This document shows positions 1 to 37,449 of a stretch of DNA of 64,000 nt, piece by piece. Below the pieces are notes generated by a model that made no database searches, was not told the DNA's origin, and worked only from the letters and a program-made list of their open reading frames with translations. Within the stretch, counting starts at the first letter, position 1; each line of letters opens with the position of its first letter. The stretch lies in IMG/VR virus record IMGVR_UViG_3300049783_001441. The stretch is one strand, 5' to 3'. The position numbers were made by a program, and so were the translations under genes. The DNA comes from a virus (lineage: Duplodnaviria; Heunggongvirae; Uroviricota; Caudoviricetes).

Positions 1-730
1 CGAGGTAAATACTGGTTGCTGACCATGCGGCGATGCCCGTTTGGCTCACCAGAGTCCAGTTACCCGCTTCGGCCACGGTGAAGGATCCCGCTGCGGTGTG
101 CCCTGCGGTGCTCTTCAGCAAGCGGACGCCCTCCGTCACAGGCTCGCCCGAGGCGTAGGTAGTTCCGCCAACGAACGCGGGGATCTCGTGAGTCGTTACT
201 GGGACGGAGGTAACTGCCGTCCACGAGCCGGCGCTGAAGACACCGGCGCTGGTGAAGGTTGCGCTAGCTTGGTAGACGATACCGCCCGAGTTGACCAGCT
301 CGTCCGCGAGGTAAACCGTCGTTGCGGCCCACGGTGCGATACCGGTCTGCCCGAGCAGTGTCCAGCTACCCGCTTCGGCCTCCGTGAAGGTGGCGGCTGA
401 CGTGTGGCCGGCAGTGCTGCGGAGCAAGCGGACGCCCTCGGTGGCGGTGCCGCCCGAGGCGTAGGTGGTGGCGGCGGTCCAGGCGATAACGTCGGTAGAC
501 GACGCGAGTGTGGACGCGGTTGAGGTCCACGCAGCGCCGCCATAGCGGAACGGCGCGGCGGTGCTACCCAACTGGATGTAGGTGTCTCCGGTCTGCAAAC
601 CGAGCAAAGTACCCGCCGCAATCAGGCTGGGGTCTAGGGTACCTGTGAAGGTGCGGTGTCCGTTTAGCTCAAGGGGTGCGACCCCATCACCGGAGGTTAC
701 GGTAAGGGCAGTGGCGATGGTCCGACTCAT
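1..730 (-). CDS. fibre-like virion protein, N-terminal part (C-terminus lies beyond the window start); contains tandem ~102-aa repeats
   Basis: rc ATG at 728-730 with GGAG 9 nt upstream; minus frame open to position 1 (not in the ORF track because there is no stop inside the window); a 306-nt direct repeat (56-84 vs 362-390; 1-9 vs 307-315) encodes repeated units of the type TYASG.TATEGVRLL.STAGHT.A..FT.AEAG.WTL..QTGIA.W.AT..YL. Confidence 0.55.
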   Translation of the reverse strand, partial: MSRTIATALTVTSGDGVAPLELNGHRTFTGTLDPSLIAAGTLLGLQTGDTYIQLGSTAAPFRYGGAAWTSTASTLASSTDVIAWTAATTYASGGTATEGVRLLRSTAGHTSAATFTEAEAGSWTLLGQTGIAPWAATTVYLADELVNSGGIVYQASATFTSAGVFSAGSWTAVTSVPVTTHEIPAFVGGTTYASGEPVTEGVRLLKSTAGHTAAGSFTVAEAGNWTLVSQTGIAAWSATSIYL

Positions 731-894
731 AGGGGACTCCAAAATGCAGGGTGTAGCTGTGCGTAAGTAAGATACAGCCTAGCATTAACCCAACACCGCG
801 CGCACTACAAACCCACCGGCGCTTAACGCCGAAAAGCCGCGACACTACAGTTAGCGGCGAGGCTTTGAGGTCTGCACTGACGAGCGTTTTCGGC

Positions 895-1896
895 CTAGCC
901 TAGACGCCCGGCTCGCGTACCGAATCGGGCGAATGAACCACTGATACGGGGGTCTGCTGATACGGCGCGGTTGGGGAAAAGTGTTACCCGGACCTTCAGA
1001 TCGGGCTGGATGGCAGCGGCCAATGACGGGTTAGTCGCACCGTCCCCCGCGTCCACCGTGTCTAGTCCGCCGGCCAGCGAGAGGGCGTTACCGTTGCTGA
1101 CCTTGCCGGCCAGCGGGATAACGAGCATCAGGAATGCCGATGTCTCCGGGGCCTTTACGGAGTTGTCATGGAGGTCCACGAGCGCGCCGTGGTCCAACTG
1201 GCGAGGCTTGAGGCCAGCCGAGTTAGCAAGCGACGAACCACCCTTATTGGTGACGGTTGCGATTCCACTGGAGTTACCTACGTGCGACCGGAACAGGCCA
1301 TGGTGCGTCGAAACCAGCGCGCAATGCGTGGGTGAGTTCGACAGAGCGCGGCCTTTGTGCAGGAAGTACTGCTCAATACCGCACCGCTGGATCAGGTTCA
1401 AGTCTGATTGGAGCGGTGCGCCGTCGTCGGCGCTGAACGCGTCAACCGCCATATGCGAGGCTAGGAACTCGGTGCGCCAAGCGGTGTCTCCACCCAGTGC
1501 CTTACGCGAGACGGCGACCCCGTGCTGACCCAACTGGTGATGGATGGACCCGTAGGTTCCGCCAAACAGGTTGGTGTCTGCAAACGGGCGGTCCGGCGTG
1601 GCCAATGCTGTGCCCGCGTAGAACTGCGGGTAGCGGAACAGCGGCACAAACATCGTGGTGGTGTCGGCGTCGTACACGACCGAGCCGGTCGGGAAGTTGT
1701 TGGCAACCTCGATAGCCGTCGCGGCTGCGGCGGTCGTCATAACGCCGCGGGGTAGATTGACGGTGTCGTAGATAGGGTCGGTAGGGCGGACGTTTCGGAT
1801 AAACTCCCCATACGAACTAGCGCTAGCTTGCTGGCATCCAGCAGCGGTGGAGGCAATCGGGGATGCCAGGTTACCGGTGGGGCGGCTTCGGTTCAT
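895..1896 (-). CDS. virion structural protein, paralogue A (333 aa; family not recognised, capsid-like or vertex/fibre-associated)
   Basis: about 50% identical to the 8632-9630 product (DPIYD..PRG, PLFRY, GGT.GSIH, LASHMAVDA.S.DDGA, SPTHCALVS, GLKPR.LD.GALV.LHD.SVKAPET, RVTLFP.R.VS); GGGAG RBS; lies directly upstream of the fibre gene. Confidence 0.55.
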   Translation of the reverse strand: MNRSRPTGNLASPIASTAAGCQQASASSYGEFIRNVRPTDPIYDTVNLPRGVMTTAAAATAIEVANNFPTGSVVYDADTTTMFVPLFRYPQFYAGTALATPDRPFADTNLFGGTYGSIHHQLGQHGVAVSRKALGGDTAWRTEFLASHMAVDAFSADDGAPLQSDLNLIQRCGIEQYFLHKGRALSNSPTHCALVSTHHGLFRSHVGNSSGIATVTNKGGSSLANSAGLKPRQLDHGALVDLHDNSVKAPETSAFLMLVIPLAGKVSNGNALSLAGGLDTVDAGDGATNPSLAAAIQPDLKVRVTLFPNRAVSADPRISGSFARFGTRAGRLG

Positions 1897-2117
1897 TGTG
1901 TTCTCCCATGCCGCGCTGAAACGGCAAAGTGATGATAGGGTCTATTTTTCGTGGCGTCGTTGGGCATGGTTGGATCCGTCCCAGCGGTGTAATAATAACG
2001 GGTCGCGACCATCTTATCACGGTTGACCGGGGCGTAGTCACCTGCTTTGACCGGCTTTACGGCGCTAGCCGCCGCCACCCCTTCACCAGCACCCACGGAA
2101 AGGCTTACCCAGCACAC
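1893..2117 (-). CDS. small hypothetical protein (74 aa)
   Basis: ORF with ATGA overlap onto 895-1896; no recognisable motif; could instead be a non-coding divergent promoter region. Confidence 0.25.
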   Translation of the reverse strand: MCWVSLSVGAGEGVAAASAVKPVKAGDYAPVNRDKMVATRYYYTAGTDPTMPNDATKNRPYHHFAVSARHGRTQ

Positions 2118-2209
2118 CAGCCCGGTGGTAGTTTTTCTTGGGGCCTACGCGCGAGGGCTACACACCGTAACCCTAGCTGCAAGGCCCGCTATGCACCGGC
2201 CCCCGCTCG

Positions 2210-3670
2210 GTGGGGCAGGCTGCACTGTGGGTTTTTCGGTTGGCTTGTAGCGGCTCGCGTTGTTACATTTCCGTACTAGGAGGGACCATCGCAAACAAGC
2301 CCAGCGTAGGTAAACAGATCGCGAAGTTAGTGCGGGAGCGGCAAGCCGACGCCGCGCAACGGCAAGCCGTTGCCTGCGGCGACCGCGGCGGCACTAAGCG
2401 CTCTGCCAACCCGAAACCTAAGCCGCTACCCCCGTTACCGCCGCAAGCGGTGCTCCAACCCGCCCCTAACCGGGTGGCGTTGTGCTCGGGTTGTGGCCTC
2501 AACACAAAGGACACGCCCCCGCTGCCAGTCCGCACCGCGAGGCCAAAAGCTAAGTTCCAACTGATCTTTAGGTGCGCCAGTGAAGAGGGACTACACGCGG
2601 GTAACTATGAATGGCTCAACGGCATCCGGCATATGCTGCCGCCCTTTGAGCCTTTACCGTTGCTGCGCTGCCCGCACGGTGCGCCCGCTGCGCTCAAAAA
2701 CGCCATGCGTGGCGATACTCACCTTAAAAAGCGGCTACTCGGTTGCCAGCTCGCCGAGCTAGACTGGGCTAAGACGACCACCAGCGAGACCGTACTCGTG
2801 ACTCTGGGTTCGTCGGCGTTCGGCGTGCTCCAGACCGCGCTAGGGGTCACCGATAAAAAGGATAAAGTCAAGTGGGACGACGTTTGGGGGACGTACATCA
2901 CGCTTGCCGGGCACACGGTTTACGTGGCGTCCGACTGGACCATGCCGAACTACCTTTCCGAGCACATGCGCGGGGTGGACATCGCCCGTATGTCCCGCCG
3001 CCCTGCCCGTGAGCAGCCGGACCCTATTTACCGGGTAGACCCTGGACAGTTCCTAAAGGCGCTGAAGGTAACCAAACGCAAGTGGGGTCCGATTGCAGCC
3101 GACATCGAGACCGGAGGCTTCGAGCCGCAGTACCAGCCGCTCCGAACACTCGGCATAGCTCACCCCAGTTACGGCGCTTTGGTGCTTGCGGCGCGGGATA
3201 TGGACGGCACTCGGCTCTTTAAAAAGAAGTGGGTCAAACGCTGTGTCGAGGCGTTGTACGAGTACGCGGTTATCTGGCATAACTCCACCTTCGACACGCG
3301 CTGGCTGGAGTACAAGACGGGTAAGCTCGCGGGTCCGAACACCCTGGATACGATGCTTCTACACCGTATTCTGTTCGAGTTGGCCCCGCATAGCTTGGCG
3401 GTTGCTTGCTCCATGGAGTGGTACACCGGCGGGTGGAAAGACGGCCTAAACCACGGGCTATCCGTGCGCTACTTGTCCGACCTCATGCTCTACAACGGCA
3501 TGGATTGCCTCAATACGTGGCGGCTGTACGCGATTCTGTGCCAGCGCTATCAGGCCGAATACGGCTACCCGGCTTACCCGATTCCGGCTCTCATACCGCA
3601 ACCGGGCCGCATCATTCACGGGGTTGAACCACCGCACCGCTTCGGCGAGCTTGTCCGGGTGGCCGCATGA
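2210..3670 (+). CDS. DNA polymerase I-like 3'-5' exonuclease (DEDDy) protein
   Basis: Exo I AADIETGGF, Exo II IWHNSTFDTRWL, Exo III YNGMDCLNTWRLY; 5' end uncertain (N-terminal about 60 aa low complexity; AGGAGG at 2279-2284); 4-nt overlap with the next ORF. Confidence 0.75.
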   Translation: MGQAALWVFRLACSGSRCYISVLGGTIANKPSVGKQIAKLVRERQADAAQRQAVACGDRGGTKRSANPKPKPLPPLPPQAVLQPAPNRVALCSGCGLNTKDTPPLPVRTARPKAKFQLIFRCASEEGLHAGNYEWLNGIRHMLPPFEPLPLLRCPHGAPAALKNAMRGDTHLKKRLLGCQLAELDWAKTTTSETVLVTLGSSAFGVLQTALGVTDKKDKVKWDDVWGTYITLAGHTVYVASDWTMPNYLSEHMRGVDIARMSRRPAREQPDPIYRVDPGQFLKALKVTKRKWGPIAADIETGGFEPQYQPLRTLGIAHPSYGALVLAARDMDGTRLFKKKWVKRCVEALYEYAVIWHNSTFDTRWLEYKTGKLAGPNTLDTMLLHRILFELAPHSLAVACSMEWYTGGWKDGLNHGLSVRYLSDLMLYNGMDCLNTWRLYAILCQRYQAEYGYPAYPIPALIPQPGRIIHGVEPPHRFGELVRVAA

Positions 3671-5058
3671 CTGTCTCCGCACCTATACCGATTCGCGACC
3701 TACGCGTGGACTGGTCAGCCCCGGAAGCCGACCGCCGCGAGGACTACGCGGGCCGGGTAATGACCCGCAACGGGATCCCCGTCCAGCACGACGTAGCTTG
3801 GAAGCTGTACCGCCGCCTAGACGGCATCGTGAACGAGTTCACGGACTACATTCGGGAGCGCGTCCCCGGCTTCACCTTGACAGCTGCCGGCACTCACAGC
3901 GTCGTGTATCGCCACCTGGGGTTGTCGCCGGACTTGGAGTTACCCGAAAACGTCACCCTCACCGACTCGGGCGGTTTTTCGACAAACCACGCCGCACTTT
4001 GCGGCATAGTGCGCAAGCTGGGTGATGACTCTAGCGCGAAAGAGCTACTTCGCCGGGTCATACTGGCCAACAAAGCGCAGACCACGCGGGACGCCGCGAA
4101 GTCGTTCCTACACCCGGACAGGCTCACGCTGCTGGAGTGCGCCGGGGTAAAAGTACCGAAACCCAATGACTACCACGTCGTGGACGGGTTCATCCATTGC
4201 CGGTTCTCCCCTAAGACCTTGAACGGGCGCTTCGCCGCGTCCAAGCCCAACAACCACGGGTACAACAAGGCGATAAAAGCCATCTTTGGGCAACCTGGGT
4301 GGTCGTTCATCCAGGCCGACGCGGACCAGATCCACATTCGCATCCAGGCGAACGAGTGGGGGATCCCTCGCCTGTGTAACGTGCTGAATAGCGGCGAAGA
4401 TCCTCACATGGCGGTTATGCGCGCCCTCTGGGGTGACGCCGAGGTCGCGAAGCTGCCCGGATTCAACGGGTGGGTAAAGAAGCCGGATCCGGGCTCGGAG
4501 GCGGACGCCTGCCGGCAGTTGGGCAAGGTGCTCAACTACACCGGGGCCTACGGCGGCGGCGCGGCTACGTTGCTAGCGGCGGCGCTCAAGCCGATTAACC
4601 GCCTCGGCATACCGGTTATGCACGGTGCCGGTCTGGCGCAATTCCAAGACTTGCTGCGCTCGCGGAAAGCGCTAGAGCCCGAATGGGCGGAGCACTATTC
4701 TCGCGTCCGTGCCGAGTGGAAAGCGCGGGGTTACCTCGAAACCTCCGCGACCCGTCGCCGGTTCCGCTGCAAAGGCGGCAAGGTTACCGAGCTTTACAAC
4801 TGCACGGTTCTCGGTTTCGAGGCGGACCTCATGGGTGCAATGACTCACGGTGCCGCCGTGAAGTGGCCAAAGTACCTAGTTAACCAGTCGCATGACTCCC
4901 TGGTTCTGCACGCTCCTGACGAGATGGCGGAAGAGTTAAAGCGCGAACTGGAGCTGCACATGAACGTGCGCTACATCGCTAATCCGGGCTTCACCGCCCA
5001 CAATACCCCCTACACTGCGGGTGCCTCCATCACCCCCACGCTACAAGAGGTCAAGTAA
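3667..5058 (+). CDS. family A DNA polymerase, polymerase-domain protein
   Basis: motif A-like FIQADADQIHIRI, motif B RQLGKVLNYTGAYGGG, motif C NQSHDSLVLHAP; ATGA overlap with the exonuclease ORF. Confidence 0.8.
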   Translation: MTVSAPIPIRDLRVDWSAPEADRREDYAGRVMTRNGIPVQHDVAWKLYRRLDGIVNEFTDYIRERVPGFTLTAAGTHSVVYRHLGLSPDLELPENVTLTDSGGFSTNHAALCGIVRKLGDDSSAKELLRRVILANKAQTTRDAAKSFLHPDRLTLLECAGVKVPKPNDYHVVDGFIHCRFSPKTLNGRFAASKPNNHGYNKAIKAIFGQPGWSFIQADADQIHIRIQANEWGIPRLCNVLNSGEDPHMAVMRALWGDAEVAKLPGFNGWVKKPDPGSEADACRQLGKVLNYTGAYGGGAATLLAAALKPINRLGIPVMHGAGLAQFQDLLRSRKALEPEWAEHYSRVRAEWKARGYLETSATRRRFRCKGGKVTELYNCTVLGFEADLMGAMTHGAAVKWPKYLVNQSHDSLVLHAPDEMAEELKRELELHMNVRYIANPGFTAHNTPYTAGASITPTLQEVK

Positions 5059-5870
5059 TGGGCACCACCAAAAACGCCAAGAGCAAAGCCGAAACGCCAG
5101 CTACCGTAGCCGACAAGCCACCCAAGCTGTTCTACCGTTACCTGATTGACGGGGGCAGGTCGGACAGCACCGCCAGCCTATACACGCGCATAGTGTCGCG
5201 CTGGGCCGACTACGAAGGGATGCTCGCGTACCTCGCCAGTCGTTCGCACCCGGACGCGGCGGAAGGCACCATGTGCCCGCTGATCAGCGCGGCTAACCAC
5301 TGGTGCGACTGGATGAGTTTGCCTCGGTCCCCCGTTAAGTACCGTTGGCGCAAAGTGGACGCTTACCTCGGGCTTATCGTCACCCGTGTAGAGGCGCTGG
5401 ACTTCCTAGACTTGTGCCCTCCGGGGCTCTCTAGGCTCTGTGCGCAGTTCGTTTTGGAGACCGGGCTCCGGGGTAACTCCCTGGTCGCTATCACCCTGCC
5501 CATGATTGCCGACGCCCGCGCGTCTAAGTTCCTACGCGTGCGGGGGAAGCGCGGGAAGCTGATCCAGTTGAGGGTTAGCAAGCGGGGCTGCAAGATTCTA
5601 AAGAAAATCAACAAGCTAGGTGGTTTCCCGCCCAACGAAGAAACGCTGCGCCGTCACTGGCGAGCGTGCCGAGCCGGGTACACTGGCCCCCGCGAAGACA
5701 TAAAATCATGGAAGATGCACACGTTCCGCCACGCGTTCGCCACCGAGTTGGCCCGCCGGGGAGCGCGGGAACGGGCGCTGCAAGAGATTCTAGGTCACTC
5801 GGACCCGAAAACCACTGCTCGGTATGTCCACCACATTGCGATCGACGATGCTATGCAGTTGCTCGAATAG
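5058..5870 (+). CDS. tyrosine site-specific recombinase (short, Xer-like, no arm-binding domain)
   Basis: C-terminal catalytic signature HTFRHAFATELARRG ... LGHSDPKTTARYVHH (H-x-x-R ... Y); start overlaps the polymerase stop. Confidence 0.75.
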   Translation: MGTTKNAKSKAETPATVADKPPKLFYRYLIDGGRSDSTASLYTRIVSRWADYEGMLAYLASRSHPDAAEGTMCPLISAANHWCDWMSLPRSPVKYRWRKVDAYLGLIVTRVEALDFLDLCPPGLSRLCAQFVLETGLRGNSLVAITLPMIADARASKFLRVRGKRGKLIQLRVSKRGCKILKKINKLGGFPPNEETLRRHWRACRAGYTGPREDIKSWKMHTFRHAFATELARRGARERALQEILGHSDPKTTARYVHHIAIDDAMQLLE

Positions 5871-5884
5871 CCTGGAGTCCCACT

Positions 5885-6631
5885 ATGCCGAAAGCCCGCC
5901 CCACGAAAGCCCGACCCTTTTACCCCTTGGTGCGCAACCCGCTGGCAGCGGAGTTTGAGCCTAACCAAACCGGGGACGCCCTGGACCGGTTCTACACGCC
6001 GTGGCCGCTCGCGCGGTTCGTCGCGTCGTTCGTCAAGTCGGTGTGTCTGAAGCACGAGTTACCCGTGAACTCCGTCATTGAACCCTCGGTCGGTGGCGGC
6101 GCGCTCGCCATGGCGGCGCGCTCCCGGTGGCCGCACGCCTCGCTGCAACTGGTGGACCTCGACCCGGAGGCCGCCGGGCTCAAGCTGCCGCTGCACGAGC
6201 CGGAAGGAGTTACCGCCTACCACCAAGACTGGCTCACCTCGAAGCTACGCGCGGACCTAGTGCTTGCAAATCCCCCGTTCACGGGTGCCAACGCCCTGCC
6301 GCACGTATGGCACGCAATGGCTTGTGCGGACACCGTGGCGCTCTTGCTGCCCTTGTCCCTGCTCGGAGGCGTAGGGCGCTGGAAAACCACTGTGCAGGGG
6401 CGCGAGCACCGCCTCATAGCCGTTGGGGCCGTTCACCCGCGACCGTGGCCGCTTAGTCTTCGCGAATCCGCCGTGATGATCTGGACCCGGCACGTAACCG
6501 TGCATCACAAGCTGGACCTCGGACCGGAGCTAATCGCCACGCCCCGCTGGACGTGCGTAGCCCCGAAGGTGAGCAAAGCTAGCGCAGACGCCGCCCGTGC
6601 AAGGCGAGCTGGTCGCCGCTCTGCGGACTAG
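5885..6631 (+). CDS. N6-adenine DNA methyltransferase (NPPF)
   Basis: DRFYTP, motif I EPSVGGGALA, motif IV LANPPFTG; ATG 5885 with GGAG 8 nt upstream (the track ORF 5666-6631 is an upstream extension into the recombinase gene). Confidence 0.65.
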   Translation: MPKARPTKARPFYPLVRNPLAAEFEPNQTGDALDRFYTPWPLARFVASFVKSVCLKHELPVNSVIEPSVGGGALAMAARSRWPHASLQLVDLDPEAAGLKLPLHEPEGVTAYHQDWLTSKLRADLVLANPPFTGANALPHVWHAMACADTVALLLPLSLLGGVGRWKTTVQGREHRLIAVGAVHPRPWPLSLRESAVMIWTRHVTVHHKLDLGPELIATPRWTCVAPKVSKASADAARARRAGRRSAD

Positions 6632-7311
6632 AGCCCGTGGCGTAGCGCGCCTGGGTGGAACACTTCCATCGGATTGTAGCCGTGGTCGCCTTGCTCGTCA
6701 GCTCGCATAGCTAGGATAGCCGCCGCGGCGCGGGTCGCGCCGCCCGATACGCGGTAGGTCGCCCGCACGTTACCGCCAGAGTCTATGATCTCTTCCGGGT
6801 GGCCCGGTTCAGGGCTCCAACACACAGCAGTTGGTGGGCTGCCAAGGGGCCATTCAGGGCGGCCTATCTCGTCCGCAGACAGGGTAAACCCGGCGCAAGC
6901 GATGTCGATAAAGGCACCGAGCGCCGGGCACACTAACCACGCGTGCATTTCCGGTAATGTCTTCGCCGCGAGCTGCATTTTAACGTCGGGGTGGTCCCGC
7001 CCTTGCCACTCGAAGCCCACGCGGGACGGGCCACCGTCGTCGCCGCGCCCACCTTCAGTAAACTGGTGCCAATAGGCCGTACCCGCGACCACGTGCAGCC
7101 GTGGTAACCCCGCCTTTCTCGCAGCCGCAACCGCCGCATACGACGCGGTCACGCACTGTAAACCGAGCCCGCTCTCTGCGATTTTGTCCGGGTCCATACC
7201 TTCGCGTAGGAGGGTCCGGCCCACCAGCTCTGACAACCGGCAAAGCTGGTTGGCACGTACTGGACCGAGCAACCGGGGGTCTCGGCTTACTGTAACTTCT
7301 AGTTGTAGCAC
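6628..7311 (-). CDS. hypothetical protein (weak NlpC/P60-like Cys motif)
   Basis: GLQCVTASYAAVAAARKAGLPR resembles the DCSGLV..Y......G..LPR Cys box; otherwise unassigned; last gene of the minus-strand structural block. Confidence 0.4.
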   Translation of the reverse strand: MLQLEVTVSRDPRLLGPVRANQLCRLSELVGRTLLREGMDPDKIAESGLGLQCVTASYAAVAAARKAGLPRLHVVAGTAYWHQFTEGGRGDDGGPSRVGFEWQGRDHPDVKMQLAAKTLPEMHAWLVCPALGAFIDIACAGFTLSADEIGRPEWPLGSPPTAVCWSPEPGHPEEIIDSGGNVRATYRVSGGATRAAAAILAMRADEQGDHGYNPMEVFHPGALRHGL

Positions 7312-7324
7312 GGCGGCTCCTACC

Positions 7325-8470
7325 TTAGAATGCGCTCATAACGGTTCGCCGCCAACCGCCCGTGAACTTAATGTAGAGGTAGTCTACACCGCCGTCCGTC
7401 CCGTATGCGAAACAGCCCACCGAGGCCGTGGACAGAGACGCCGACGTTGCGATGGTGCCGTCAGCGGACAACGCGAGCCGCAGCCCTTGGTGCTCGTCGC
7501 CCGCCTTTTGCTCGATGTCTAGGGTCGCGGTGGCGTTCGTGCTCACCGCCGCGGCGTCCCCGTTGACCTTGTGCAGACCCGTGGTGCCCGCGACGAAGCC
7601 TGCGATGGTGTGGCCTAACGACGCCGTGCCGCTACCCGCGCCCTGGAAGTCGATCCCGAACGCCGCGCCTTGCGCTTCGGCGATGGCACCGCGCCCAACG
7701 GCGGCAGAATGCAACCCCTTAGCCTGCGAGCCGGTGCCGATAGCTACGCAGTCCGTGTCGCTTACCGACGCCCCTACGCCTATGGCCACGTAGTCCACGG
7801 CCCCCGCGCCGATTATGGTTCCAAAGCCAAAATCGTAGTTCCTGGCAGACACCGCCAGAACCGTGGACGCTGCCACGCCGCCCGTCAGTAGCAGGTCGGC
7901 TTGGTCCGTGCCTAGCAGCACTGTCGAGAAGCTCTTTAGCTGGGATGTCAGCGAGGTTACGGTCAGGGTGCCGACATTCGTGGTGCCCGTGTCGGTAACT
8001 GTCAGCAAGGTCGCCGCAGCGCCCACAACAAACTGTGAGTTGTTGACGCCCTCCGTCACCACGAAGCCGCTGGAGTCTCCGACGCCGTGTACGAAACGGC
8101 AGGTGGTGGTCGCAGTCGCCGCCCCGGCTACCGTCCAGTCAGCTTGTTGTAGCTGCGTCCAGTTAGCCCCGTCATACGCCGTGATGTCACCGGTAGTGAT
8201 GCCTGGGATGCTCGTGTCGGTCAGTGCCAGGAACGTGGTAACTCCGGCGCTTGCGCCCCCGGTTGCGATCCACGCCGCCCCATCGTAGCGCCACAAGCTG
8301 TCAGCGCTGGTGGTGTCTAGGAAGGTGTCACCGAGAGCAAGCTCGCGGAAGGTGTAACCAGCAGCGTTCGGGTCGCCGGCCCCTATAAACCACCGTGAAC
8401 CCCTTATCTTCATGGCGAAGATCCCGTCGCCCCCGGACAACTGGATGTTTTTGTACGCTGTGGGTGGCAT
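7325..8470 (-). CDS. Gly/Ala/Thr-rich fibre or spike protein
   Basis: 381 aa, low-complexity G/A/T/V-rich shaft-like sequence with an N-terminal conserved-looking domain (KNIQLSGGDGIFAMKIRGSRWFIGAGDPNAAG); immediately downstream of paralogue B. Confidence 0.55.
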   Translation of the reverse strand: MPPTAYKNIQLSGGDGIFAMKIRGSRWFIGAGDPNAAGYTFRELALGDTFLDTTSADSLWRYDGAAWIATGGASAGVTTFLALTDTSIPGITTGDITAYDGANWTQLQQADWTVAGAATATTTCRFVHGVGDSSGFVVTEGVNNSQFVVGAAATLLTVTDTGTTNVGTLTVTSLTSQLKSFSTVLLGTDQADLLLTGGVAASTVLAVSARNYDFGFGTIIGAGAVDYVAIGVGASVSDTDCVAIGTGSQAKGLHSAAVGRGAIAEAQGAAFGIDFQGAGSGTASLGHTIAGFVAGTTGLHKVNGDAAAVSTNATATLDIEQKAGDEHQGLRLALSADGTIATSASLSTASVGCFAYGTDGGVDYLYIKFTGGWRRTVMSAF

Positions 8471-8631
8471 GTGTGCTCCGCGTGGGTCTGGGGTCTTGCG
8501 CCGCGCAACCCGCGCCGGCAGCGCAAAGGCGCTAGCTGGTGACGGGTAACCCGGAAAAGTAGAGGCATAAAACAGAGCCGCCCCGCCCGAGCAAACGAAC
8601 AGGGCGGCGGTCAGTCAACCAGAGGGTCGAC

Positions 8632-9630
8632 TTACTTCGTGAGCATCATCGGAGCTTGCGGGCCGAACTTGCTACGGGCACCCGGATCAGACGAGGAGAC
8701 GGTCCGGTCTGGGAAGAGTGTAACGCGGATAACGACGCCAGGCTGGACAGCGTTGGCAACGGCGGGGAGGGCGTTCGTGCCGTCATCAATCGAGTCGAAC
8801 CCGGTGACGTTGGCCAGAACCGAGCCGCTGGTTGCCTTGCGGAAGAACGGAATGCGCAGGGTCAAGTATGCGCGGGTCTCTGGGGCCTTGACACTGTCGT
8901 CATGCAGCACAACGAGTGCTCCACGGTCGAGCTTGCGGGGCTTCAGGCCGGACGGGCTCTGGAGGCTTGCACCACCGGAGGTCTTGGCAGCGGCAGCGCC
9001 ATCAGAATCGCCAGCGTGGGCGCGGAAGATTCCTGGGAAGCATGAAACCAGGGCGCAATGCGTCGGGGAGTCTGCAACCGTGCGGCCACCGATCAGGTAA
9101 TCCTGCTCAAGCGTGCCCTTTTGGATGCTGTTAACGTCGGTGAGCAAGAGCGCTCCGTCGTCGTTGGAGTAAGCATCAACGGCCATGTGCGAGGCAAGGT
9201 ACTCTGCGGTCCAGGCTTCGCCGCCGGCAGGGAGGTTGTTGCGTGAAGTAGCAACGCCGCCATGGCCGGTTTCATTGTGGATGGACCCGAAAGTCCCGCC
9301 GTAGATATTGGTCTCGTCCAAGCCGCGAGCCGGTGCAGTCACGCCGCTGGTGTAGCGGTGGTAGCGGAACAAGGGGATGGCGATGAACTTTTCGGTGGCG
9401 TCCCACGAGATCGTGCCGGCGGGGTAACCGTTAGCAGTTTCCATGGCAGCCAACACGACGGCAGACGACAAGTCGCCACGCGGAATGATGATGCTGTCGT
9501 AAATCGGGTCATCGAGGCCAACGCGAGCGATGAAATCGCTGAAAATGTCGCCCTTGTTGAACTGGCCCATCTTGCAGCCGGCTGCGGCCACCGATGCGAT
9601 AGGGGATGAGAGGCGAGTGTTGTCGTTCAT
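8632..9630 (-). CDS. virion structural protein, paralogue B (333 aa from the ATG at 9630)
   Basis: paralogue of 895-1896; start MNDNTRLSSPIASVAAAGC with GGAG RBS; the track ORF extends to 9678. Confidence 0.55.
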   Translation of the reverse strand: MNDNTRLSSPIASVAAAGCKMGQFNKGDIFSDFIARVGLDDPIYDSIIIPRGDLSSAVVLAAMETANGYPAGTISWDATEKFIAIPLFRYHRYTSGVTAPARGLDETNIYGGTFGSIHNETGHGGVATSRNNLPAGGEAWTAEYLASHMAVDAYSNDDGALLLTDVNSIQKGTLEQDYLIGGRTVADSPTHCALVSCFPGIFRAHAGDSDGAAAAKTSGGASLQSPSGLKPRKLDRGALVVLHDDSVKAPETRAYLTLRIPFFRKATSGSVLANVTGFDSIDDGTNALPAVANAVQPGVVIRVTLFPDRTVSSSDPGARSKFGPQAPMMLTK

Positions 9631-9649: not shown

Positions 9650-10114
9650 TTACGCGGGTATAATAGTGGAAATTTCAAGATGAGAGAGGTTGTCTGGGCG
9701 GGTCTGCCCTAAAATGACTTCCGCAAAGAGTACCGGCCAACGCGGCGGCTTTACGGTGAAAGACGCATGTTCACGACTTACCAACTGTGCTGGTATGACT
9801 ACGCCTAAATGGGAGTGCGTTGCGTCGGCGAAAAACCGAACGGACAGCGCTCCCGGTGCGGCCCACTGTACGTCCAGCTTAGCTGCCGGCACCAGTGAGA
9901 ACACCATGCGAAAACCCAAGCCCCAGCTAAGGGGGTCGGCCCACAACAGGCCGCAATGGTTGCGGGCTAATTCCTTAGCCCTGGCCGCCTCTGGTTGGAG
10001 CACCCCATCGGCCACCACTGTAAATATCGGCCCTGGCTTATCCAGTGTGCCCGCCGCAAACCCCGTTCCAGGGGTTGACAGCAGCAGTAGCCTATTTTTC
10101 AGCGGTTCAGCCAT
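9650..10114 (-). CDS. hypothetical protein (154 aa)
   Basis: ORF in the operon upstream of paralogue B; no motif recognised. Confidence 0.45.
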   Translation of the reverse strand: MAEPLKNRLLLLSTPGTGFAAGTLDKPGPIFTVVADGVLQPEAARAKELARNHCGLLWADPLSWGLGFRMVFSLVPAAKLDVQWAAPGALSVRFFADATHSHLGVVIPAQLVSREHASFTVKPPRWPVLFAEVILGQTRPDNLSHLEISTIIPA

Positions 10115-10159
10115 GGGGCGAGATCTCCAGCAGGGGTTACTTACTTACTTACTTTGAGC

Positions 10160-10585
10160 TTAGTAGACGCTGGTGCCGTCGTCAAGGGTAACTGCGACCG
10201 TCACTTCGTCGTCTGCGCCGTCAGCGCCTTCAGCGATGGCTCCAGCGTTGGCACGCATTTCGCGGACATACTGAACGGTGGCGGGTGCGGACATTCCGAT
10301 AGCGAAGCCGGCTCCGACTTGCGCGGACGAGTCAACGCCAGCAGCGTTGAGGCCCATTGCGATTCCGGTGCCGACGACGGCTCCGGCGATAACGTCGGTC
10401 AGGACTCGCATCTTGGAGCCTTGCTCGGGAAGCCATTCGCCAGCGAAGCGCTCGATAAGGAACGAAGCGCCAACGCCCGCGCCAACTCCAGCAGCCGCGG
10501 GAGCGGCCATCATGCTGTAATCGATGACGGTGGACAGAGCGCCACCTTGCTGGCTAAGGTCCATGTAGTAGTTATCGGTGTTCAT
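10160..10585 (-). CDS. Gly/Ala-rich small hydrophobic protein
   Basis: 141 aa with several G/A-rich hydrophobic stretches (AAPAAAGVGAGVGASFLI, VIAGAVVGTGIAMGLNAAGV). Confidence 0.45.
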   Translation of the reverse strand: MNTDNYYMDLSQQGGALSTVIDYSMMAAPAAAGVGAGVGASFLIERFAGEWLPEQGSKMRVLTDVIAGAVVGTGIAMGLNAAGVDSSAQVGAGFAIGMSAPATVQYVREMRANAGAIAEGADGADDEVTVAVTLDDGTSVY

Positions 10586-10655
10586 TGGAAACTCCTGCGG
10601 GTTATTTTAGCCAGTTACAGGCCGGTGAGCTACCCCAGCTCGGGTTTTTCTAGGG

Positions 10656-11486
10656 TTACTCGGCAGATTTGCCAAGCGCCTTTAAGGGTGCGGTAACTCC
10701 GGCTAGCGCGCCTTTCAGCTCACTCCCGAAGTAAAACAACACCGCAAGAAACACTACAATTAGGACCACGGCGTAGTACGCCCCGGCTGATTGTATGAAG
10801 ACTTTGAAGATGTTTTTTGACCACTCGCTGAAGCCTCCCTTGGCTTCAATCGCGGTATCTTTTAACGCGGCCAGTGCCCTAGGCACCGTAGTAATCGCCA
10901 CCTCCAGCCCACCGTTTAGGGCTCGCGAGGCAGTTTCATACCAGCCCGAATCTAGCGGCTCTAGCTCGCCGTCCATAATCTCATTCGCCAGCCTAAAGGC
11001 CACCTGGGAGCCGAGGTTGCCAGCCACTCGCGCGGCTCCTCGGATGGTATCTTCGATGTCGCCGGTGCCGTTTGCACGGGGTATCGCGGGCAGGCCAGCC
11101 AGCCCCAGAATGTGGAGTGCGCTGAACTGCTCCCAACCGTAGGTAGCTTCCAGCCGGCCCAGCTTGCGGGCGGACGCGACCTTGAACTGGTCGTTACCGG
11201 TGTCGGCGTAGCCAACGGCGTAGATATACGCGGCGCGGACGTGCGCGCCAAAGTTGGTGCGTGGACGCATCATTACGCGGGCGGTAACATTGGACGGGGT
11301 GCCGTCTGGCACCAGGCTAACGAGCGCCGCCATGCTGGGGTTAGACGAGCCGGCGAGGCGAGTGTCCGAGCAGCCACAACCACCGGAGCTAGCCGCTACA
11401 GAGGCGATGGACGAGGCGAGGTGGGAGTCTTCGCAGGCCGAGCATTTCCCCTTATTCGTATTCCCGCAACCGGATAACTCACTCAT
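10656..11486 (-). CDS. Cys-rich protein with C-terminal transmembrane anchor
   Basis: N-terminus CGNTNKGKCSACEDSH...SSIASVAASSGGCGC shares the IASVAA..GC motif with both virion-protein paralogues; C-terminal helix AYYAVVLIVVFLAVLFYFG. Confidence 0.5.
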   Translation of the reverse strand: MSELSGCGNTNKGKCSACEDSHLASSIASVAASSGGCGCSDTRLAGSSNPSMAALVSLVPDGTPSNVTARVMMRPRTNFGAHVRAAYIYAVGYADTGNDQFKVASARKLGRLEATYGWEQFSALHILGLAGLPAIPRANGTGDIEDTIRGAARVAGNLGSQVAFRLANEIMDGELEPLDSGWYETASRALNGGLEVAITTVPRALAALKDTAIEAKGGFSEWSKNIFKVFIQSAGAYYAVVLIVVFLAVLFYFGSELKGALAGVTAPLKALGKSAE

Positions 11487-11865
11487 AGGTAACCTCTGTG
11501 AGACTTGCGCCCCTGCTGCTAGTCCACTTTAACACTGCTAGTAACCCGAAGGCCACCGCAATGCAGGCCAAAGTCCACACCCACCACGGGGTAGCTTTAA
11601 CTTTTTCGATTCCGGCCTCTGCTCGGTCCAGGCTGTCCACCCAAAAACCGCCCTCTTCCGAGCTTAGCGGATCCGAGCCCCAGTCCGAGTCTGTCGAATC
11701 TGACGGCACTAGGTCCGTGCTCTCTTCGCCAGACTGCGGGCTGGGGTCGGTGTAGCCGTTAGACGGGTCGTCCAAAGCGTCCTGCTTACTAGATAGCTGG
11801 TTTTTTAGCCGGTTTGCTAACCCGGCGGCGCGACCTGCTTGGAACTCTGGGAAGGGCTTACCCAC
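11479..11865 (-). CDS. tail-anchored membrane protein (acidic N-terminal domain)
   Basis: C-terminal helix WWVWTLACIAVAFGLLAVL. Confidence 0.45.
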   Translation of the reverse strand: MGKPFPEFQAGRAAGLANRLKNQLSSKQDALDDPSNGYTDPSPQSGEESTDLVPSDSTDSDWGSDPLSSEEGGFWVDSLDRAEAGIEKVKATPWWVWTLACIAVAFGLLAVLKWTSSRGASLTEVTYE

Positions 11866-11868
11866 GAG

Positions 11869-12390
11869 TTACCTCCGCCCGACGAGAACGAGCATTAACA
11901 CCACGAACAGGGCTGCGAGCGCCGCGGCTCCCAGCCCCACCCACTTCCAAGGGCTCTCTGTCTCCACCAAGTAATTCGCGGCGTCTTTCAGGATCGCCCC
12001 GGCAGACTTTGACTCTGCCGGTGGGGGTGTGTCCACACCGGGCGCGTCGTCGGGTTGGTGCGAAGCGTATTCGCGGAGCATGGCTAGCTCCACGATCTGC
12101 CAGTCAACCATGCGAGCATGGGCGTAGCGGTCGTTCGCCGTGGCCGTTGCCGGCGGGCTAACCTTAATCAAGGTCTGCTCGATGCGGCGGTCAGCTTCGG
12201 CGATAAACGCGCGCAAGCCTTTACTGTCCACTGGCGGGCTCTGGATGGCCGTGAACCAGTTAACCCCGCTAGCTTTGAGCCAGCTTAGGCGAGCGCCTAG
12301 CTGGGTGTAGGAACCGTCCTCGTAGGGGTAGTCTACGCCTTGAACGCCGGTGGGGTTGCTCGTGTGGCTATCGGTGGCATTATGCGGCAT
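11869..12390 (-). CDS. tail-anchored membrane protein
   Basis: C-terminal helix VGLGAAALAALFVVLMLVLVG. Confidence 0.45.
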   Translation of the reverse strand: MPHNATDSHTSNPTGVQGVDYPYEDGSYTQLGARLSWLKASGVNWFTAIQSPPVDSKGLRAFIAEADRRIEQTLIKVSPPATATANDRYAHARMVDWQIVELAMLREYASHQPDDAPGVDTPPPAESKSAGAILKDAANYLVETESPWKWVGLGAAALAALFVVLMLVLVGRR

Positions 12391-13333
12391 TGGACTTGCC
12401 TCCGAGTGTCTTCGCGAGGAGCACCACGAGCACGAGTGCGGCCACGAGAATCAGAGCCCCCGCCGCGTATGCAAAGTAGTTGGGCTTGTCGTCGGTCAAC
12501 CCGAACTCGCCGCCGGCATCGAGTTCGCCGTTGTTACCGGGCTCGTCAGGGCGGTCCATTCTGCGGCCGTCTTCGCGGTCCATTTTGGTGCTGTTACCTT
12601 CGCTGCGATCTTCGAGGGTGTCAGCGCCGGGTACGCCACGGGTCTTGATGCCCTCGGGGTGCTTGATGCGCTGCATGGCCGTAGAGTTTAGCACCTGCAA
12701 CCGCGCCGCTTCACCGTGGCCCGTGGTGATCACGCCACGCGTGCGGTAGGCCGCCACTGGGATCACGCCGCCGGTTAGTCCCGGCATCGGGACATCGGCC
12801 CAACTCTCTTTGAATGGGGTCAGCATGAAGCCCGCGCCGTACTTGCGGAGTAGCTGCCCTAGCTCGCGGTAACCTGCCCGCCACGCCTCTACTTCGGGCA
12901 GCGTGCGTGCAGCGGCACGGCGAGCCCTACCGGTCAGGGGATCAGCCGGGTTGGCCGATGGCCCGCTAGGGTTGAGCAATCGGCGCACCTTTTCAGGCAT
13001 CCGGCCCGGCCTGGCAACGACGTGTTTGATTACCTGCTTCCAAGTCTGGCCCAGAAACGGCTTAATCAGAGCTTGCAGGCGGATAGAGTCGCGGCCTACT
13101 TCGGCTGTCAGGTTCGCCATGCGCAGATAATAGTACGGGCGCATACCCGTAGACAGCCACAGGTTTTTGTGCGCTTGCTTTTTGGTGAGTACCGCCCGAA
13201 CGACCTCTTGCTGTGCGGCCTTTAGGAAGGCTTCGCGGTCGCTAGTACCCCACGATGGCCACAACTGGGCCGCGTCTAGCGCTAGTGTGGGTAAGTCTCG
13301 GGAAAGCCCCGCCGAAATGTCCGTGTGGCTCAT
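12380..13333 (-). CDS. tail-anchored membrane protein (317 aa)
   Basis: C-terminal helix FAYAAGALILVAALVLVVLLA. Confidence 0.5.
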   Translation of the reverse strand: MSHTDISAGLSRDLPTLALDAAQLWPSWGTSDREAFLKAAQQEVVRAVLTKKQAHKNLWLSTGMRPYYYLRMANLTAEVGRDSIRLQALIKPFLGQTWKQVIKHVVARPGRMPEKVRRLLNPSGPSANPADPLTGRARRAAARTLPEVEAWRAGYRELGQLLRKYGAGFMLTPFKESWADVPMPGLTGGVIPVAAYRTRGVITTGHGEAARLQVLNSTAMQRIKHPEGIKTRGVPGADTLEDRSEGNSTKMDREDGRRMDRPDEPGNNGELDAGGEFGLTDDKPNYFAYAAGALILVAALVLVVLLAKTLGGKSNAA

Positions 13334-13659
13334 GGCGAACCCCTTCGCGGTAACATGGCAATGATGAGCACAACAAGTGCCAGGATAACCACCACGACAA
13401 CCGATAGGCCGGCATAGTTCGTTGGGTTTAGCTGGCTAAGGGCCAGCTCTAAGTGTTGCTCCACGCGGAGCAACATCGCATACGTTTCGGCATCGCCAGC
13501 TCGGCGGGCACGCAACTTTTGCCGCTGCACCTCGGCGAGCTTGGCCGGGATACTGGCGCTGGTCTGTAGGTACGCGGATACGCCGGGGGCTAACGCCGCC
13601 AGGGTATCCGAGTCCAAACGCCCGACAATGTCGAGCGCAGCGCCAGTAACGTCAGCCAT
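13330..13659 (-). CDS. tail-anchored membrane protein
   Basis: C-terminal helix LSVVVVVILALVVLIIAML. Confidence 0.45.
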   Translation of the reverse strand: MADVTGAALDIVGRLDSDTLAALAPGVSAYLQTSASIPAKLAEVQRQKLRARRAGDAETYAMLLRVEQHLELALSQLNPTNYAGLSVVVVVILALVVLIIAMLPRRGSP

Positions 13660-13662
13660 GGC

Positions 13663-14106
13663 CTAGCCGCGAGCCTTGCTGATGCCGAGCGCAATGAGCA
13701 CACCCAACAGCACAAACACCACGAGACCAATCACGCGCCCTGGGGTTACCAGGGGTGCGGGAGGGGTGACTAGGGGGTTGTTACTGGTGGTGTCGTCAAG
13801 TTCGTCAAACACGTCCTCGCCAGCCGAACCCTTACCTTGAGCGGCGCGGATAAGTTCAGCGGCGGTCGGTCCGAGTGCGTCCACGAGGTCCGCAGCGAGA
13901 CGAGCAGCTTCCGCTGGGCTGATGCCGGAATCACCGGAGCCGCCGCCGGAATCTGGGGTGTCGCCACCGGTCTTTCTGCCGTTTTCGAGTGGGGCCTTAC
14001 CCGCGAGGCGAGCTTCGCTAAGCTGTGGTTGGCCGCCATCTTCTTCGAGCAACAGACGTTCGTATTCGGCCTCGTCGGGCCAGTCTTCTAGGGGTGGCAT
14101 AGGCAA
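13663..14106 (-). CDS. tail-anchored membrane protein
   Basis: C-terminal helix VIGLVVFVLLGVLIALGI. Confidence 0.45.
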   Translation of the reverse strand: MPMPPLEDWPDEAEYERLLLEEDGGQPQLSEARLAGKAPLENGRKTGGDTPDSGGGSGDSGISPAEAARLAADLVDALGPTAAELIRAAQGKGSAGEDVFDELDDTTSNNPLVTPPAPLVTPGRVIGLVVFVLLGVLIALGISKARG

Positions 14107-14124
14107 CTCCTCGGGCTTTACCCG

Positions 14125-14904: not shown

Positions 14905-14907
14905 TGG

Positions 14908-16286: not shown

Positions 16287-16289
16287 GGG

Positions 16290-18629: not shown

Positions 18630-18669
18630 CTGGCGTGCCGGGTAACTAATAGCGTCGGGCCGCTCTCAA

Positions 18670-20631: not shown

Positions 20632-20689
20632 ATTGGTGTCCTCTGCGCATAAAGTCCACCGGGTGCGCGCTACACGCCGGTTCGCCGGG

Positions 20690-37181: not shown

Positions 37182-37449
37182 AGTGAACGTGTTCACTAAC
37201 CGCAAGCACTTACGCCGGTAGGCGGGGAGTTACCCCCACTACCGGCGCGAGGGTCACTGTTCGGCCATTGTAGGCCCGTTGTTTGGCGGTTACTACGGCT
37301 GCGAGAGCCAGAAAACCAAGGCGCTAGCGTTGGTGGCCCGTGCGTTTGCCGGCCTATTTCGTGGTCCCTCCCCGGTATTGGTGGCGGGTTGCTTACTCTG
37401 GAGTTACCGGTTGGAGCGCGAATGCGCAGACACCACCCTGGAGCCCCAC

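What the first reader, a model, noticed from the sequence alone, without database searches (positions are those of the whole stretch)
895..9630. Duplicated virion-protein plus fibre cassettes with different fibres
The 895-1896 and 8632-9630 products are clear paralogues (about 50% identity, long identical blocks). Each is immediately followed on the same strand by a different fibre-like gene. Paralogue A is followed by a beta-repeat fibre with 102-aa tandem units (1-730). Paralogue B is followed by a Gly/Ala-rich collagen-like fibre (7325-8470). Either the particle carries two distinct vertex or receptor-binding assemblies (host-range breadth), or the cassette was duplicated and the fibre was swapped. 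The two copies flank the polymerase/recombinase/MTase island.
Basis: seen in the sequence. Interest (0 to 1): 0.65.

Follow-up and report, generated by a model that had tools for sequence, protein, structure and literature searches.

The report
Duplicated surface-protein and fibre gene pairs
A virus-like element of about 100 kb, unlike anything annotated, carries two old, diverged copies of a two-gene unit: an apparently abundant soluble protein followed by a fibre. The two fibres share only their first ~85 residues, so one particle may carry two different host-binding fibres, but that these proteins are in a virion is inferred, not shown.

Summary
A (895-1896, -) and B (8632-9630, -) are 48% identical over 326 aa (E=7e-98). 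Each is followed 161-164 nt downstream by a fibre-like gene.
- The two fibres are not wholly different. Their first ~85 aa are homologous (36% identity, E=4e-8), so the whole two-gene unit was duplicated and only the distal fibre parts differ.
- Fibre A is the start of a 2,862-aa protein with about 22 CBM5/12-like modules.
- Fibre B is Gly/Ala-rich but not collagen-like.

Cassette B sits in the position conserved in the only three related lineages found among 1.84 billion protein representatives. That order is: basic DNA-binding protein, about 10 tail-anchored membrane proteins, a ~150-aa protein, the A/B homologue, a terminator hairpin, then the fibre. Cassette A is an old extra copy; synonymous sites between A and B are saturated.

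A/B match nothing in Pfam, PHROGs, NCBIfam or PDB. AlphaFold2 models were poor (pLDDT 42), so the fold is unresolved.

Best reading (confidence about 0.45): two cognate pairs of surface subunit and fibre in an uncharacterised, probably membrane-containing virus. The theme is known; the protein family and the element are new.

The parts
2..730 (-). First 243 codons of the fibre A gene. The full product is 2,862 aa and runs off the window start. It has the shared N-terminal anchor domain (residues 1-~85), then alternating CBM5/12-like ~50-aa modules.
   Evidence: The translation is identical to the start of the ORF at L001 9883-18471. The N-domain matches fibre B at 36% identity, E=4e-8. Pfam CBM_5_12 scores 36.5 bits (cut-off 26.2) and TSP3_bac 35.1 bits (cut-off 25). 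GGAG lies before the ATG at 730.
731..894 (-). Spacer between A and fibre A. It has imperfect hairpins and no canonical terminator.
   Evidence: RNA fold z = -1.7, not significant. It does not align with the cassette B spacer.
895..1896 (-). Paralogue A, 333 aa. The extra, derived copy of the A/B family.
   Evidence: BLASTP against B. Sister to B relative to P0002-P0004. The JGI gene call of 281 aa starts at an internal Met. The longer form is supported by N-terminal conservation with B and by the GGAG site.
1897..2209 (.). Divergent intergenic region between A (-) and the PolA exonuclease gene (+). Contains a promoter-like site at 2020..1992 on the - strand.
   Evidence: Consensus scan only, and the number of sites is no higher than chance. 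This part is inference.
2210..6631 (+). Island between the cassettes: 3'-5' exonuclease-like protein, family A DNA polymerase, tyrosine recombinase, methyltransferase.
   Evidence: Pfam hits DNA_pol_A, Phage_integrase, MTS and RNase_H_2. No flanking att-like repeats were found.
7325..8470 (-). Fibre B, 381 aa. Shared N-terminal anchor domain, a GVTTFLALTDT motif, a Gly/Ala/Thr-rich part with 13-14-residue repeats, and a conserved C-terminal end.
   Evidence: Positional and sequence homologue of the L003 424-aa and L004 413-aa proteins. Composition and repeats. YadA_head E=0.023, below the Pfam cut-off.
8577..8608 (-). Terminator-like hairpin 24 nt after the stop codon of B: a 13-bp stem with 10 G-C pairs, followed by UCUGUUUUAU.
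   Evidence: z = -4.56, 0 of 200 shuffles fold as well. Equivalent hairpins follow the homologues in L004 (z = -3.4) and L006 (z = -4.4); L003 has a hairpin but its region is not significant (z = -1.85). No comparable - strand site was listed in 12-32 kb, and the site count there is at chance level.
8632..9630 (-). Paralogue B, 332 aa. The copy in the conserved (ancestral) position.
   Evidence: Same neighbours as P0002, P0003 and P0004 in L003-L006. Codon bias ENC 38.3, fifth strongest of 40 genes.
9650..10114 (-). 154-aa soluble protein that precedes the A/B gene in every relative. It is not duplicated.
   Evidence: Alignment A5. There is a single copy in the window.
10160..17308 (-). Run of 11 genes whose products are membrane proteins, most of them with a single C-terminal transmembrane anchor. 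They include a transglutaminase-core protein, a lysozyme-like protein and an M15 peptidase. This is the context that defines cassette B as part of a conserved module.
   Evidence: Hydropathy scan. Pfam hits. Homologues and the same pattern in L003, L004 and L006.
17412..18629 (-). Lys/Ala-rich, histone-H1-like basic protein at the head of the conserved module.
   Evidence: Sequence. Basic counterparts sit at the equivalent place in L004 (244 aa, 66 K+R) and L003 (215 aa, 50 K+R).

Best explanation
The window holds two diverged copies of a two-gene unit: a soluble, apparently highly expressed virion-surface subunit (the A/B family) followed by a fibre.

The fibre's conserved N-terminal ~85 residues are its attachment domain. 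I infer that this domain docks on, or next to, the A/B protein encoded just upstream.

Cassette B is the ancestral unit. It closes a conserved morphogenesis-like module made of a basic DNA-condensing protein, about 10 tail-anchored membrane proteins (three of them cell-wall or protease-type enzymes), a ~150-aa protein, B, a terminator and the fibre.

Cassette A is an old duplicate, apparently a separate transcription unit. Its fibre kept only the anchor domain and gained a giant adhesin-like distal part. That part has about 22 CBM5/12-like modules, an ice-binding-type beta-helix segment and TSP3 calcium-binding repeats.

The expected result is a particle, or a mix of particles, with two fibre types, each held by its cognate paralogue. 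This would give two binding specificities.

Shown: the paralogy, the shared fibre N-domain, the conserved gene order, the terminator placement, and the age and integrity of both copies.

Inferred: that these proteins are in a virion, that A/B contacts the fibre N-domain, and that the particle has an internal membrane and no tail.
For: 1. A and B are 48% identical (E=7e-98). Synonymous sites are saturated and both ORFs are intact with GGAG sites, so both copies have been kept by selection.
2. The fibre N-domains are homologous. The same domain heads the fibres of L003 and L004. Profile searches find exactly two A/B genes and two fibres with this domain in the window, always adjacent, but only one copy of the upstream 154-aa gene. 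The duplicated unit is therefore precisely A/B plus the fibre anchor.
3. The same gene order occurs in three other lineages whose DNA is 50-69% G+C.
4. A terminator-like hairpin follows B and its homologues in L004 and L006 (z = -3.4 to -4.6); the L003 spacer also has a hairpin but is not significant. B has strong codon bias while fibre B does not. This is the pattern of an abundant subunit followed by a low-copy fibre.
5. The module has 11 consecutive membrane proteins, most of them tail-anchored, including peptidoglycan hydrolases, plus a histone-like basic protein. No terminase, portal or HK97-type capsid hit was found in the window or in about 16 kb of flanks.
6. Fibre A's N-domain is more diverged from relatives (21-22% identity) than fibre B's (29-32%). 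This fits A being the derived copy.
Against: - No member of the A/B family matches any known virion protein by sequence or profile.
- No A/B-fibre contact has been tested.
- The correlation of divergence between A/B proteins and fibre N-domains is weak and rests on 6 pairs (r = 0.62).
- Cassette A lacks the strong terminator (z = -1.7) and has only average codon bias.
- About 18 kb of the roughly 99-kb contig was not seen and could hold tailed-phage head genes.
- No packaging ATPase of the FtsK/A32 type was found. The only Walker-A protein in the operon is an AAA_5 (MoxR-like) ATPase.
Confidence: 0.45

Rival explanations
1. Tailed-phage reading. The element is a very diverged tailed phage. A/B is a baseplate or adaptor protein that carries a fibre, and the duplication gives a dual-fibre tail like the known dual-tailspike phages.
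For: Fibres with a conserved N-terminal adaptor-binding domain and variable distal parts are typical of tailed phages (established knowledge). The genome is about 99 kb and encodes PolA, helicases, a DUF3987 protein and a Phage_phiTE_072 protein. About 18 kb of the contig was not seen.
Against: No terminase, portal, HK97 capsid, tape-measure or sheath/tube hit was found in any sizeable ORF of the window or its flanks by Pfam or PHROGs. Eleven consecutive membrane proteins and a histone-like protein next to the cassette are not features of tail modules. There are no matches in 50,697 phage records.
Confidence: 0.15
2. A/B is not structural. It is a fibre-specific assembly or modification factor (chaperone, protease or other enzyme) that each fibre needs in a matched version.
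For: Polar motifs are unusually well conserved for 27-49% identity: RDTN[LVI][WFY]GG and TH[LMI][AG][VI]D[AIV][FY]..DG. Cys21, His148, Asp152, Asp157 and Asp165 are invariant. A/B was duplicated together with the fibre anchor.
Against: Fibre chaperones are usually small, encoded downstream of the fibre, and act on its C-terminal part (established knowledge). Here A/B is upstream, the conserved fibre part is N-terminal, and the distal parts are unrelated. The terminator placement and B's codon bias point to a product made in large excess over the fibre. No enzyme family matched.
Confidence: 0.15
3. Only cassette B is virion-related. Cassette A with the giant protein is an accessory unit expressed separately, for example a cell-surface or extracellular adhesin, and is not a second virion fibre.
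For: A lies outside the long - strand operon, next to and divergent from the replication genes, with a promoter-like site of its own. It has no strong terminator and average codon bias. The giant protein has an adhesin-type make-up: CBM5/12 modules, TSP3 repeats and an ice-binding-like beta-helix.
Against: The giant protein keeps the fibre anchor domain, and A keeps all the family motifs after an old duplication. This is hard to explain without the same partnership as B and fibre B. Neither protein shows a hydrophobic secretion signal by eye or in the hydropathy scan.
Confidence: 0.1
4. The element is not a virus. The module builds a surface or transfer apparatus of a plasmid or integrative element, and A/B plus the fibres are its exposed parts.
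For: No viral hallmark gene was recognised. The module has many small membrane proteins and cell-wall hydrolases, and the element encodes a tyrosine recombinase.
Against: No VirB4, VirD4, FtsK-type ATPase or relaxase hits were found. The remaining content is phage-like: split PolA, M15 endolysin-like protein, muramidase, phrog_200/SPFH, Phage_phiTE_072, and phage-type methyltransferase in relatives. Nothing related was found in one genome per species of GTDB.
Confidence: 0.05

Closest known systems
PRD1/PR772 (Tectiviridae) vertex complex: penton protein P31 plus spike P5 (and P2)
   Same: The genes for the base protein and the spike are adjacent (XXXI then V). The spike has an N-terminal base domain and a distal binding part (PMC6750898). 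The virion has an internal membrane with many small membrane proteins and membrane-associated lytic enzymes.
   Different: There is no detectable sequence or profile similarity of A/B to P31 or P3, or of the fibre N-domain to P5 (probability below 1%). In PRD1 the spike N-domain is homologous to the penton protein; here the fibre N-domain is related neither to A/B nor to the 154-aa protein. A/B is 333 aa against 126 aa for P31. No FtsK-type packaging ATPase was found. The genome is about 99 kb against 15 kb. PRD1 has no duplicated base gene.
Adenoviruses with two fibre genes (human adenovirus 40/41, fowl adenoviruses). From my own knowledge, not checked here.
   Same: Two fibres of different length share a conserved N-terminal tail that binds the vertex protein, giving two binding specificities on one particle.
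   Different: Those viruses have a single penton base gene. Here the upstream partner is duplicated as well and has diverged to 48% identity.
Dual-tailspike tailed phages with adaptor proteins (K1-5, SP6, CBA120, G7C). From my own knowledge, not checked here.
   Same: Several receptor-binding proteins have conserved N-terminal attachment modules and exchangeable distal parts, which widens host range.
   Different: No tail, portal, terminase or HK97 capsid genes were detected here. The neighbouring genes encode membrane proteins, most of them tail-anchored.
T7 gene 10 followed by terminator T-phi. Established knowledge.
   Same: An intrinsic terminator sits directly after the gene for the most abundant structural protein, and the downstream low-copy tail and fibre genes are read by read-through.
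   Different: This is only an analogy of gene layout. No homology is implied, and transcription was not measured here.

Membership tests
PRD1-adenovirus type vertex (jelly-roll base protein plus fibre) | The base or capsid protein has a jelly-roll fold | tested here: inconclusive
PRD1-adenovirus type vertex (jelly-roll base protein plus fibre) | The fibre has a conserved N-terminal attachment domain and a variable distal part | tested here: met
   Fibre A and fibre B are 36% identical over the first 86 aa (E=4e-8) and unrelated beyond that. The same domain heads the L003 and L004 fibres.
PRD1-adenovirus type vertex (jelly-roll base protein plus fibre) | The genome encodes a double jelly-roll capsid protein and an FtsK/A32-type packaging ATPase | tested here: not met
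   No such Pfam or PHROGs hit was found in the window or flanks. The only Walker-A protein in the operon is an AAA_5 ATPase. Caveats: these families are very diverged, and about 18 kb of the genome was not seen.
PRD1-adenovirus type vertex (jelly-roll base protein plus fibre) | Specific to tectiviruses: the spike N-domain is homologous to the penton protein | tested here: not met
   hhalign of the fibre N-domain profile against the A/B profile and against the 154-aa family profile gave probability at or below 0.1%.
Internal-membrane-containing bacterial viruses (general) | A cluster of small virion membrane proteins with membrane-anchored lytic enzymes next to the capsid genes | tested here: inconclusive
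   Eleven consecutive predicted membrane proteins, most of them tail-anchored, include Transglut_core, a lysozyme-like protein and Peptidase_M15. The pattern is conserved in relatives. Whether they are in a virion was not testable.
Tailed phages (Caudoviricetes) fibre/adaptor module | Terminase large subunit, portal and HK97-fold capsid protein in the same genome | tested here: not met
   No hit in any sizeable ORF of the 64-kb window or in about 16 kb of flanks. About 18 kb of the contig was not examined.
   The longest G-X-Y run is 2 triplets.
YadA-head-like beta-roll repeats (fibre B) | A Pfam YadA_head match above the cut-off, with 14-residue repeats | tested here: inconclusive
   E=0.023, 15.5 bits against a cut-off of 25. 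A[IVF]G motifs recur at 229, 243, 257 and 270, a spacing of 13-14 residues.
CBM5/12 carbohydrate-binding modules (fibre A) | A Pfam CBM_5_12 match above the gathering score | tested here: met
   36.5 bits against a cut-off of 26.2, in 3 stretches. About 22 modules of ~50 aa lie between residues ~85 and ~1230. Sugar binding itself was not tested.

The most novel reading that the evidence does not exclude
The A/B family is the capsid-shell protein of a previously unrecognised lineage of large (about 100 kb) tailless bacterial viruses. In these viruses the DNA is condensed by a histone-like protein inside a membrane studded with tail-anchored proteins. No known hallmark genes are present, which would explain why virus catalogues miss them. 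In this member the shell protein has duplicated, and one copy has specialised as the socket for a giant 2,862-aa fibre.
Probability: 0.2. Interest if true: 0.85.

Novelty: new variant of a known kind. Interest (0 to 1): 0.55.

Why it matters
Two receptor-binding fibres on one particle is a known way to widen host range. Here the partner protein has been duplicated along with the fibre's attachment domain. That gives a natural matched-pair experiment on how fibres are anchored: cognate against swapped pairs.

The cassettes also mark a conserved module with no detectable link to any known virion gene set. It has a basic DNA-binding protein, about 10 tail-anchored membrane proteins, one major soluble protein and a fibre. 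The A/B family has only four clusters among 1.84 billion protein representatives and none in IMG/VR or in the phage records searched. If particles can be obtained, this could define a new virion architecture for bacterial viruses.

Tried and rejected
Structure:
- AlphaFold2 of A with 2 sequences gave pLDDT 28.6. With all 5 known family members it gave pLDDT 42.1. Both are too poor to classify the fold.
- The AFDB libraries were not available.

Family and sequence searches:
- Pfam, PHROGs and NCBIfam found nothing for A/B.
- PDB profile searches of the A/B family and of the fibre B family found nothing, even at E <= 10.
- tblastn against 50,697 phage records found nothing for A, for the transglutaminase-like protein or for fibre B.
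- The word-indexed protein searches returned only this element's own proteins plus P0004.

Searches for more relatives:
- Scans of IMG/VR, JGI metagenome contigs and GTDB genomes found none.
- The metagenome negative is weak. An exact 50-mer from this element's own contig was also absent from that collection.

Extending the genome:
- The DNA pattern scan found nothing.
- About 18 kb of the roughly 99-kb contig therefore remains unseen.

Ideas tested and dropped:
- The fibre N-domain is homologous to A/B or to the 154-aa protein, as in PRD1 P5/P31. Rejected by hhalign.
- Similarity to PRD1 P3, P31 or P5. None found.
- The polymerase/recombinase island is flanked by att-like repeats. None found.
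- Recent gene conversion between A and B. Rejected: the longest identical run is 12 nt.
- A lipoprotein signal in A/B. Rejected by eye: there is no hydrophobic segment before the conserved Cys, and the residues before it do not fit a lipobox in the relatives.


Full report
**Observation**

ORF A (895-1896, -, 333 aa) and ORF B (8632-9630, -, 332 aa) are clear paralogues. BLASTP gives 48% identity over 326 residues, E=7e-98. Identical blocks run up to nine residues. Both start at an ATG preceded by GGAG, as do the neighbouring genes. The JGI gene call for A (P0001, 281 aa) starts at an internal Met. The longer form is supported by N-terminal conservation with B.

At the DNA level the copies are 57% identical. 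The longest exact run is 12 nt, and third-codon positions agree in only 46% of codons for identical residues. The duplication is therefore old, both copies have been maintained, and there is no recent gene conversion.

Two other metagenome assemblies (L001, L002) carry the same double arrangement with two mismatches in 10.6-11.7 kb. It is not an assembly artefact.

**The fibres**

Window 2-730 (-) is the first 243 codons of a 2,862-aa ORF, seen complete in L001. After an N-terminal ~85-aa domain it has about 22 modules of ~50 aa of two alternating subtypes. Pfam CBM_5_12 and TSP3_bac both pass their cut-offs. Residues 2048-2233 resemble ice-binding-type beta-helix proteins (PDB 6eio, E=1.7e-4).

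Fibre B (7325-8470, 381 aa) is rich in Ala, Gly and Thr. It has no collagen triplet runs, and shows 13-14-residue A[IVF]G repeats with a sub-threshold YadA_head match.

Profile searches of all six frames find exactly two A/B genes and exactly two fibres with this N-domain in the window, always as adjacent pairs. The gene upstream of B (154 aa) is present only once. The duplicated unit is thus A/B plus the fibre anchor, and only the distal fibre differs.

**Relatives and context**

A and B have no hit in Pfam, PHROGs or NCBIfam, none in PDB by profile search, and none in 50,697 phage records.

An exhaustive HMMER search of 1.84 billion representatives with the A+B profile found only A itself and three other clusters: P0002, P0003 and P0004, with E values from 2e-32 to 8.5e-24. 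A and B are each other's closest relatives, at 49% against 27-31% to the others.

The contigs that encode the relatives have 50-69% G+C and share one gene order:
- a very basic Lys/Arg-rich protein;
- a set of proteins that nearly all end in a single transmembrane helix, including a lysozyme-like protein and a transglutaminase-core protein;
- a multi-pass membrane protein;
- a ~150-aa soluble protein;
- the A/B homologue;
- a fibre with the same N-domain.

In the window this is the stretch 18629 down to 7325 on the - strand. It has 11 consecutive predicted membrane proteins (10160-17308), most of them with a C-terminal anchor. A Lys/Ala-rich histone-like protein is encoded at 17412-18629.

Cassette B is therefore the ancestral one and cassette A is the extra copy. 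Consistent with this, fibre A's N-domain is the most diverged of the four.

**Expression signals**

A 13-bp G+C-rich hairpin with a U-rich tail lies 24 nt after the stop codon of B (z = -4.56). Canonical terminators follow the homologues in L004 (z = -3.4) and L006 (z = -4.4). L003 also has a hairpin but its region is not significant (z = -1.85).

No comparable - strand site was listed elsewhere in the operon, and the site count there is at chance level.

B has the fifth strongest codon bias of 40 genes (ENC 38.3). A is average (43.7) and fibre B is weak (49.6).

Cassette A has no significant terminator (z = -1.7) and lies divergent from the PolA genes.

This pattern suggests an abundant B product and a low-copy fibre, as with T7 gene 10 and T-phi (established knowledge). 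It is indirect evidence.

**What kind of element**

Recognisable genes are the following:
- a split PolA, a tyrosine recombinase and a methyltransferase;
- helicases and a DUF3987 protein;
- an AAA_5 (MoxR-like) ATPase;
- an SPFH protein, an M15 peptidase, a muramidase and a patatin-like protein;
- HU and an HTH repressor-like protein;
- a Phage_phiTE_072 protein.

No terminase, portal, HK97 capsid, tail protein, double jelly-roll capsid or FtsK-type ATPase was detected in the window or in about 16 kb of flanks. About 18 kb of the roughly 99-kb contig could not be retrieved.

GGAG ribosome-binding sites and peptidoglycan hydrolases point to a bacterial host.

**Fold**

At 48% identity A and B certainly share one fold, but which fold is unknown.

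**Interpretation**

The best-supported reading (about 0.45) is two cognate pairs of surface subunit and fibre in an uncharacterised, probably membrane-containing and tailless bacterial virus. B with the short fibre is ancestral. A anchors a giant adhesin-like fibre.

The closest known arrangement is the PRD1/PR772 vertex. There the penton and spike genes are adjacent, and the spike has an N-terminal base domain. Membership is not supported:
- there is no similarity to P3, P31 or P5;
- the fibre N-domain is unrelated to A/B;
- no packaging ATPase of that lineage was found.

The rivals are:
- a diverged tailed phage with a dual-fibre baseplate (0.15);
- A/B as a fibre-specific assembly factor or enzyme, suggested by strongly conserved polar motifs (0.15);
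- cassette A as a separately expressed accessory adhesin (0.10);
- a non-viral element (0.05).

**Verdict**

The finding is real and sharper than first described. The theme of dual fibres with a shared attachment module is known. Duplication of the partner protein, the complete lack of homology, and the unusual conserved module around it are new. I rate it a new variant of a known kind, with interest 0.55.

Noticed in passing
window 1836-1869 (A), 9574-9612 (B), 11376-11423 (276-aa product of 10656-11486), all - strand: The N-terminal motif L[AS]S[PS]IAS[VT]AA..GC is shared by A, B and an unrelated tail-anchored membrane protein. The Cys is the only invariant N-terminal residue in the five-member A/B family. 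It may be a processing or targeting signal. A membrane-anchored transglutaminase-core (papain-fold) protein is encoded nearby at 14125-14904.
   Followed up: partly
window 10160-17308 (-); L003 4718-8647; L004 3288-6406: Eleven consecutive genes encode predicted membrane proteins, most with a single C-terminal transmembrane anchor. They include a transglutaminase-core protein, a lysozyme-like protein and an M15 peptidase. The order is conserved in relatives with 50-69% G+C.
   Followed up: partly
window 17412-23400 (-): An AAA_5 (MoxR-like) ATPase (22363-23400) is followed by three unusual proteins. The 558-aa protein has a hyper-acidic N-half and an 'LVLIDISGSC' segment that looks like a VWA MIDAS motif by eye, with no Pfam hit. 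Next come a hyper-acidic 689-aa protein and a Lys/Ala-rich histone-H1-like 405-aa protein. Basic counterparts exist in L003 and L004.
   Followed up: partly
window 37279-39144 (+): A 621-aa protein has a hydrophobic N-terminus, an Ala/Leu/Gln-rich coiled-coil-like stretch and a beta-rich remainder. It is a third fibre-like protein but lacks the shared N-domain. It has no Pfam, PHROGs, NCBIfam or PDB match.
   Followed up: partly
window 1-64000 plus L001, L007, L010, L012: No terminase, portal, capsid or tail family was recognised anywhere in about 80 kb of this element. The A/B family was not found in IMG/VR. The element may be invisible to marker-based virus detection.
   Followed up: partly
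window 10137-10154: A tetranucleotide repeat, (TTAC)4.5 on the + strand and GTAA on the - strand, lies in the short spacer just upstream of the 154-aa gene. It could be a slippage-prone tract.
   Followed up: no
window 5666-6631 (+) versus 5058-5870 (+): The longest methyltransferase ORF overlaps the recombinase gene by about 200 nt. JGI called a 234-aa product, so the true start is probably near 5930.
   Followed up: no
window 8182-8470 (fibre B N-domain) versus PRD1 P5 residues 103-205 (L014 5287-6309): hhalign placed 'LGDTFLDTTSADS...GGASAGVTTFLAL' against PRD1 P5 'FGESLLDTTSEPG...GGGGGGGVTDALSL', 34% identity over 73 columns. The probability is only 0.24%, so this is not significant. It may be a short motif common to fibres or it may be chance.
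   Followed up: no
window 31562-32359 (-), 48961-49908 (+), 46692-47480 (+): An SPFH/Band 7 protein (phrog_200, E=6e-48), a patatin-like phospholipase and a PF11860 muramidase are encoded elsewhere in the element. In relative L004 the patatin gene lies directly after the fibre.
   Followed up: no
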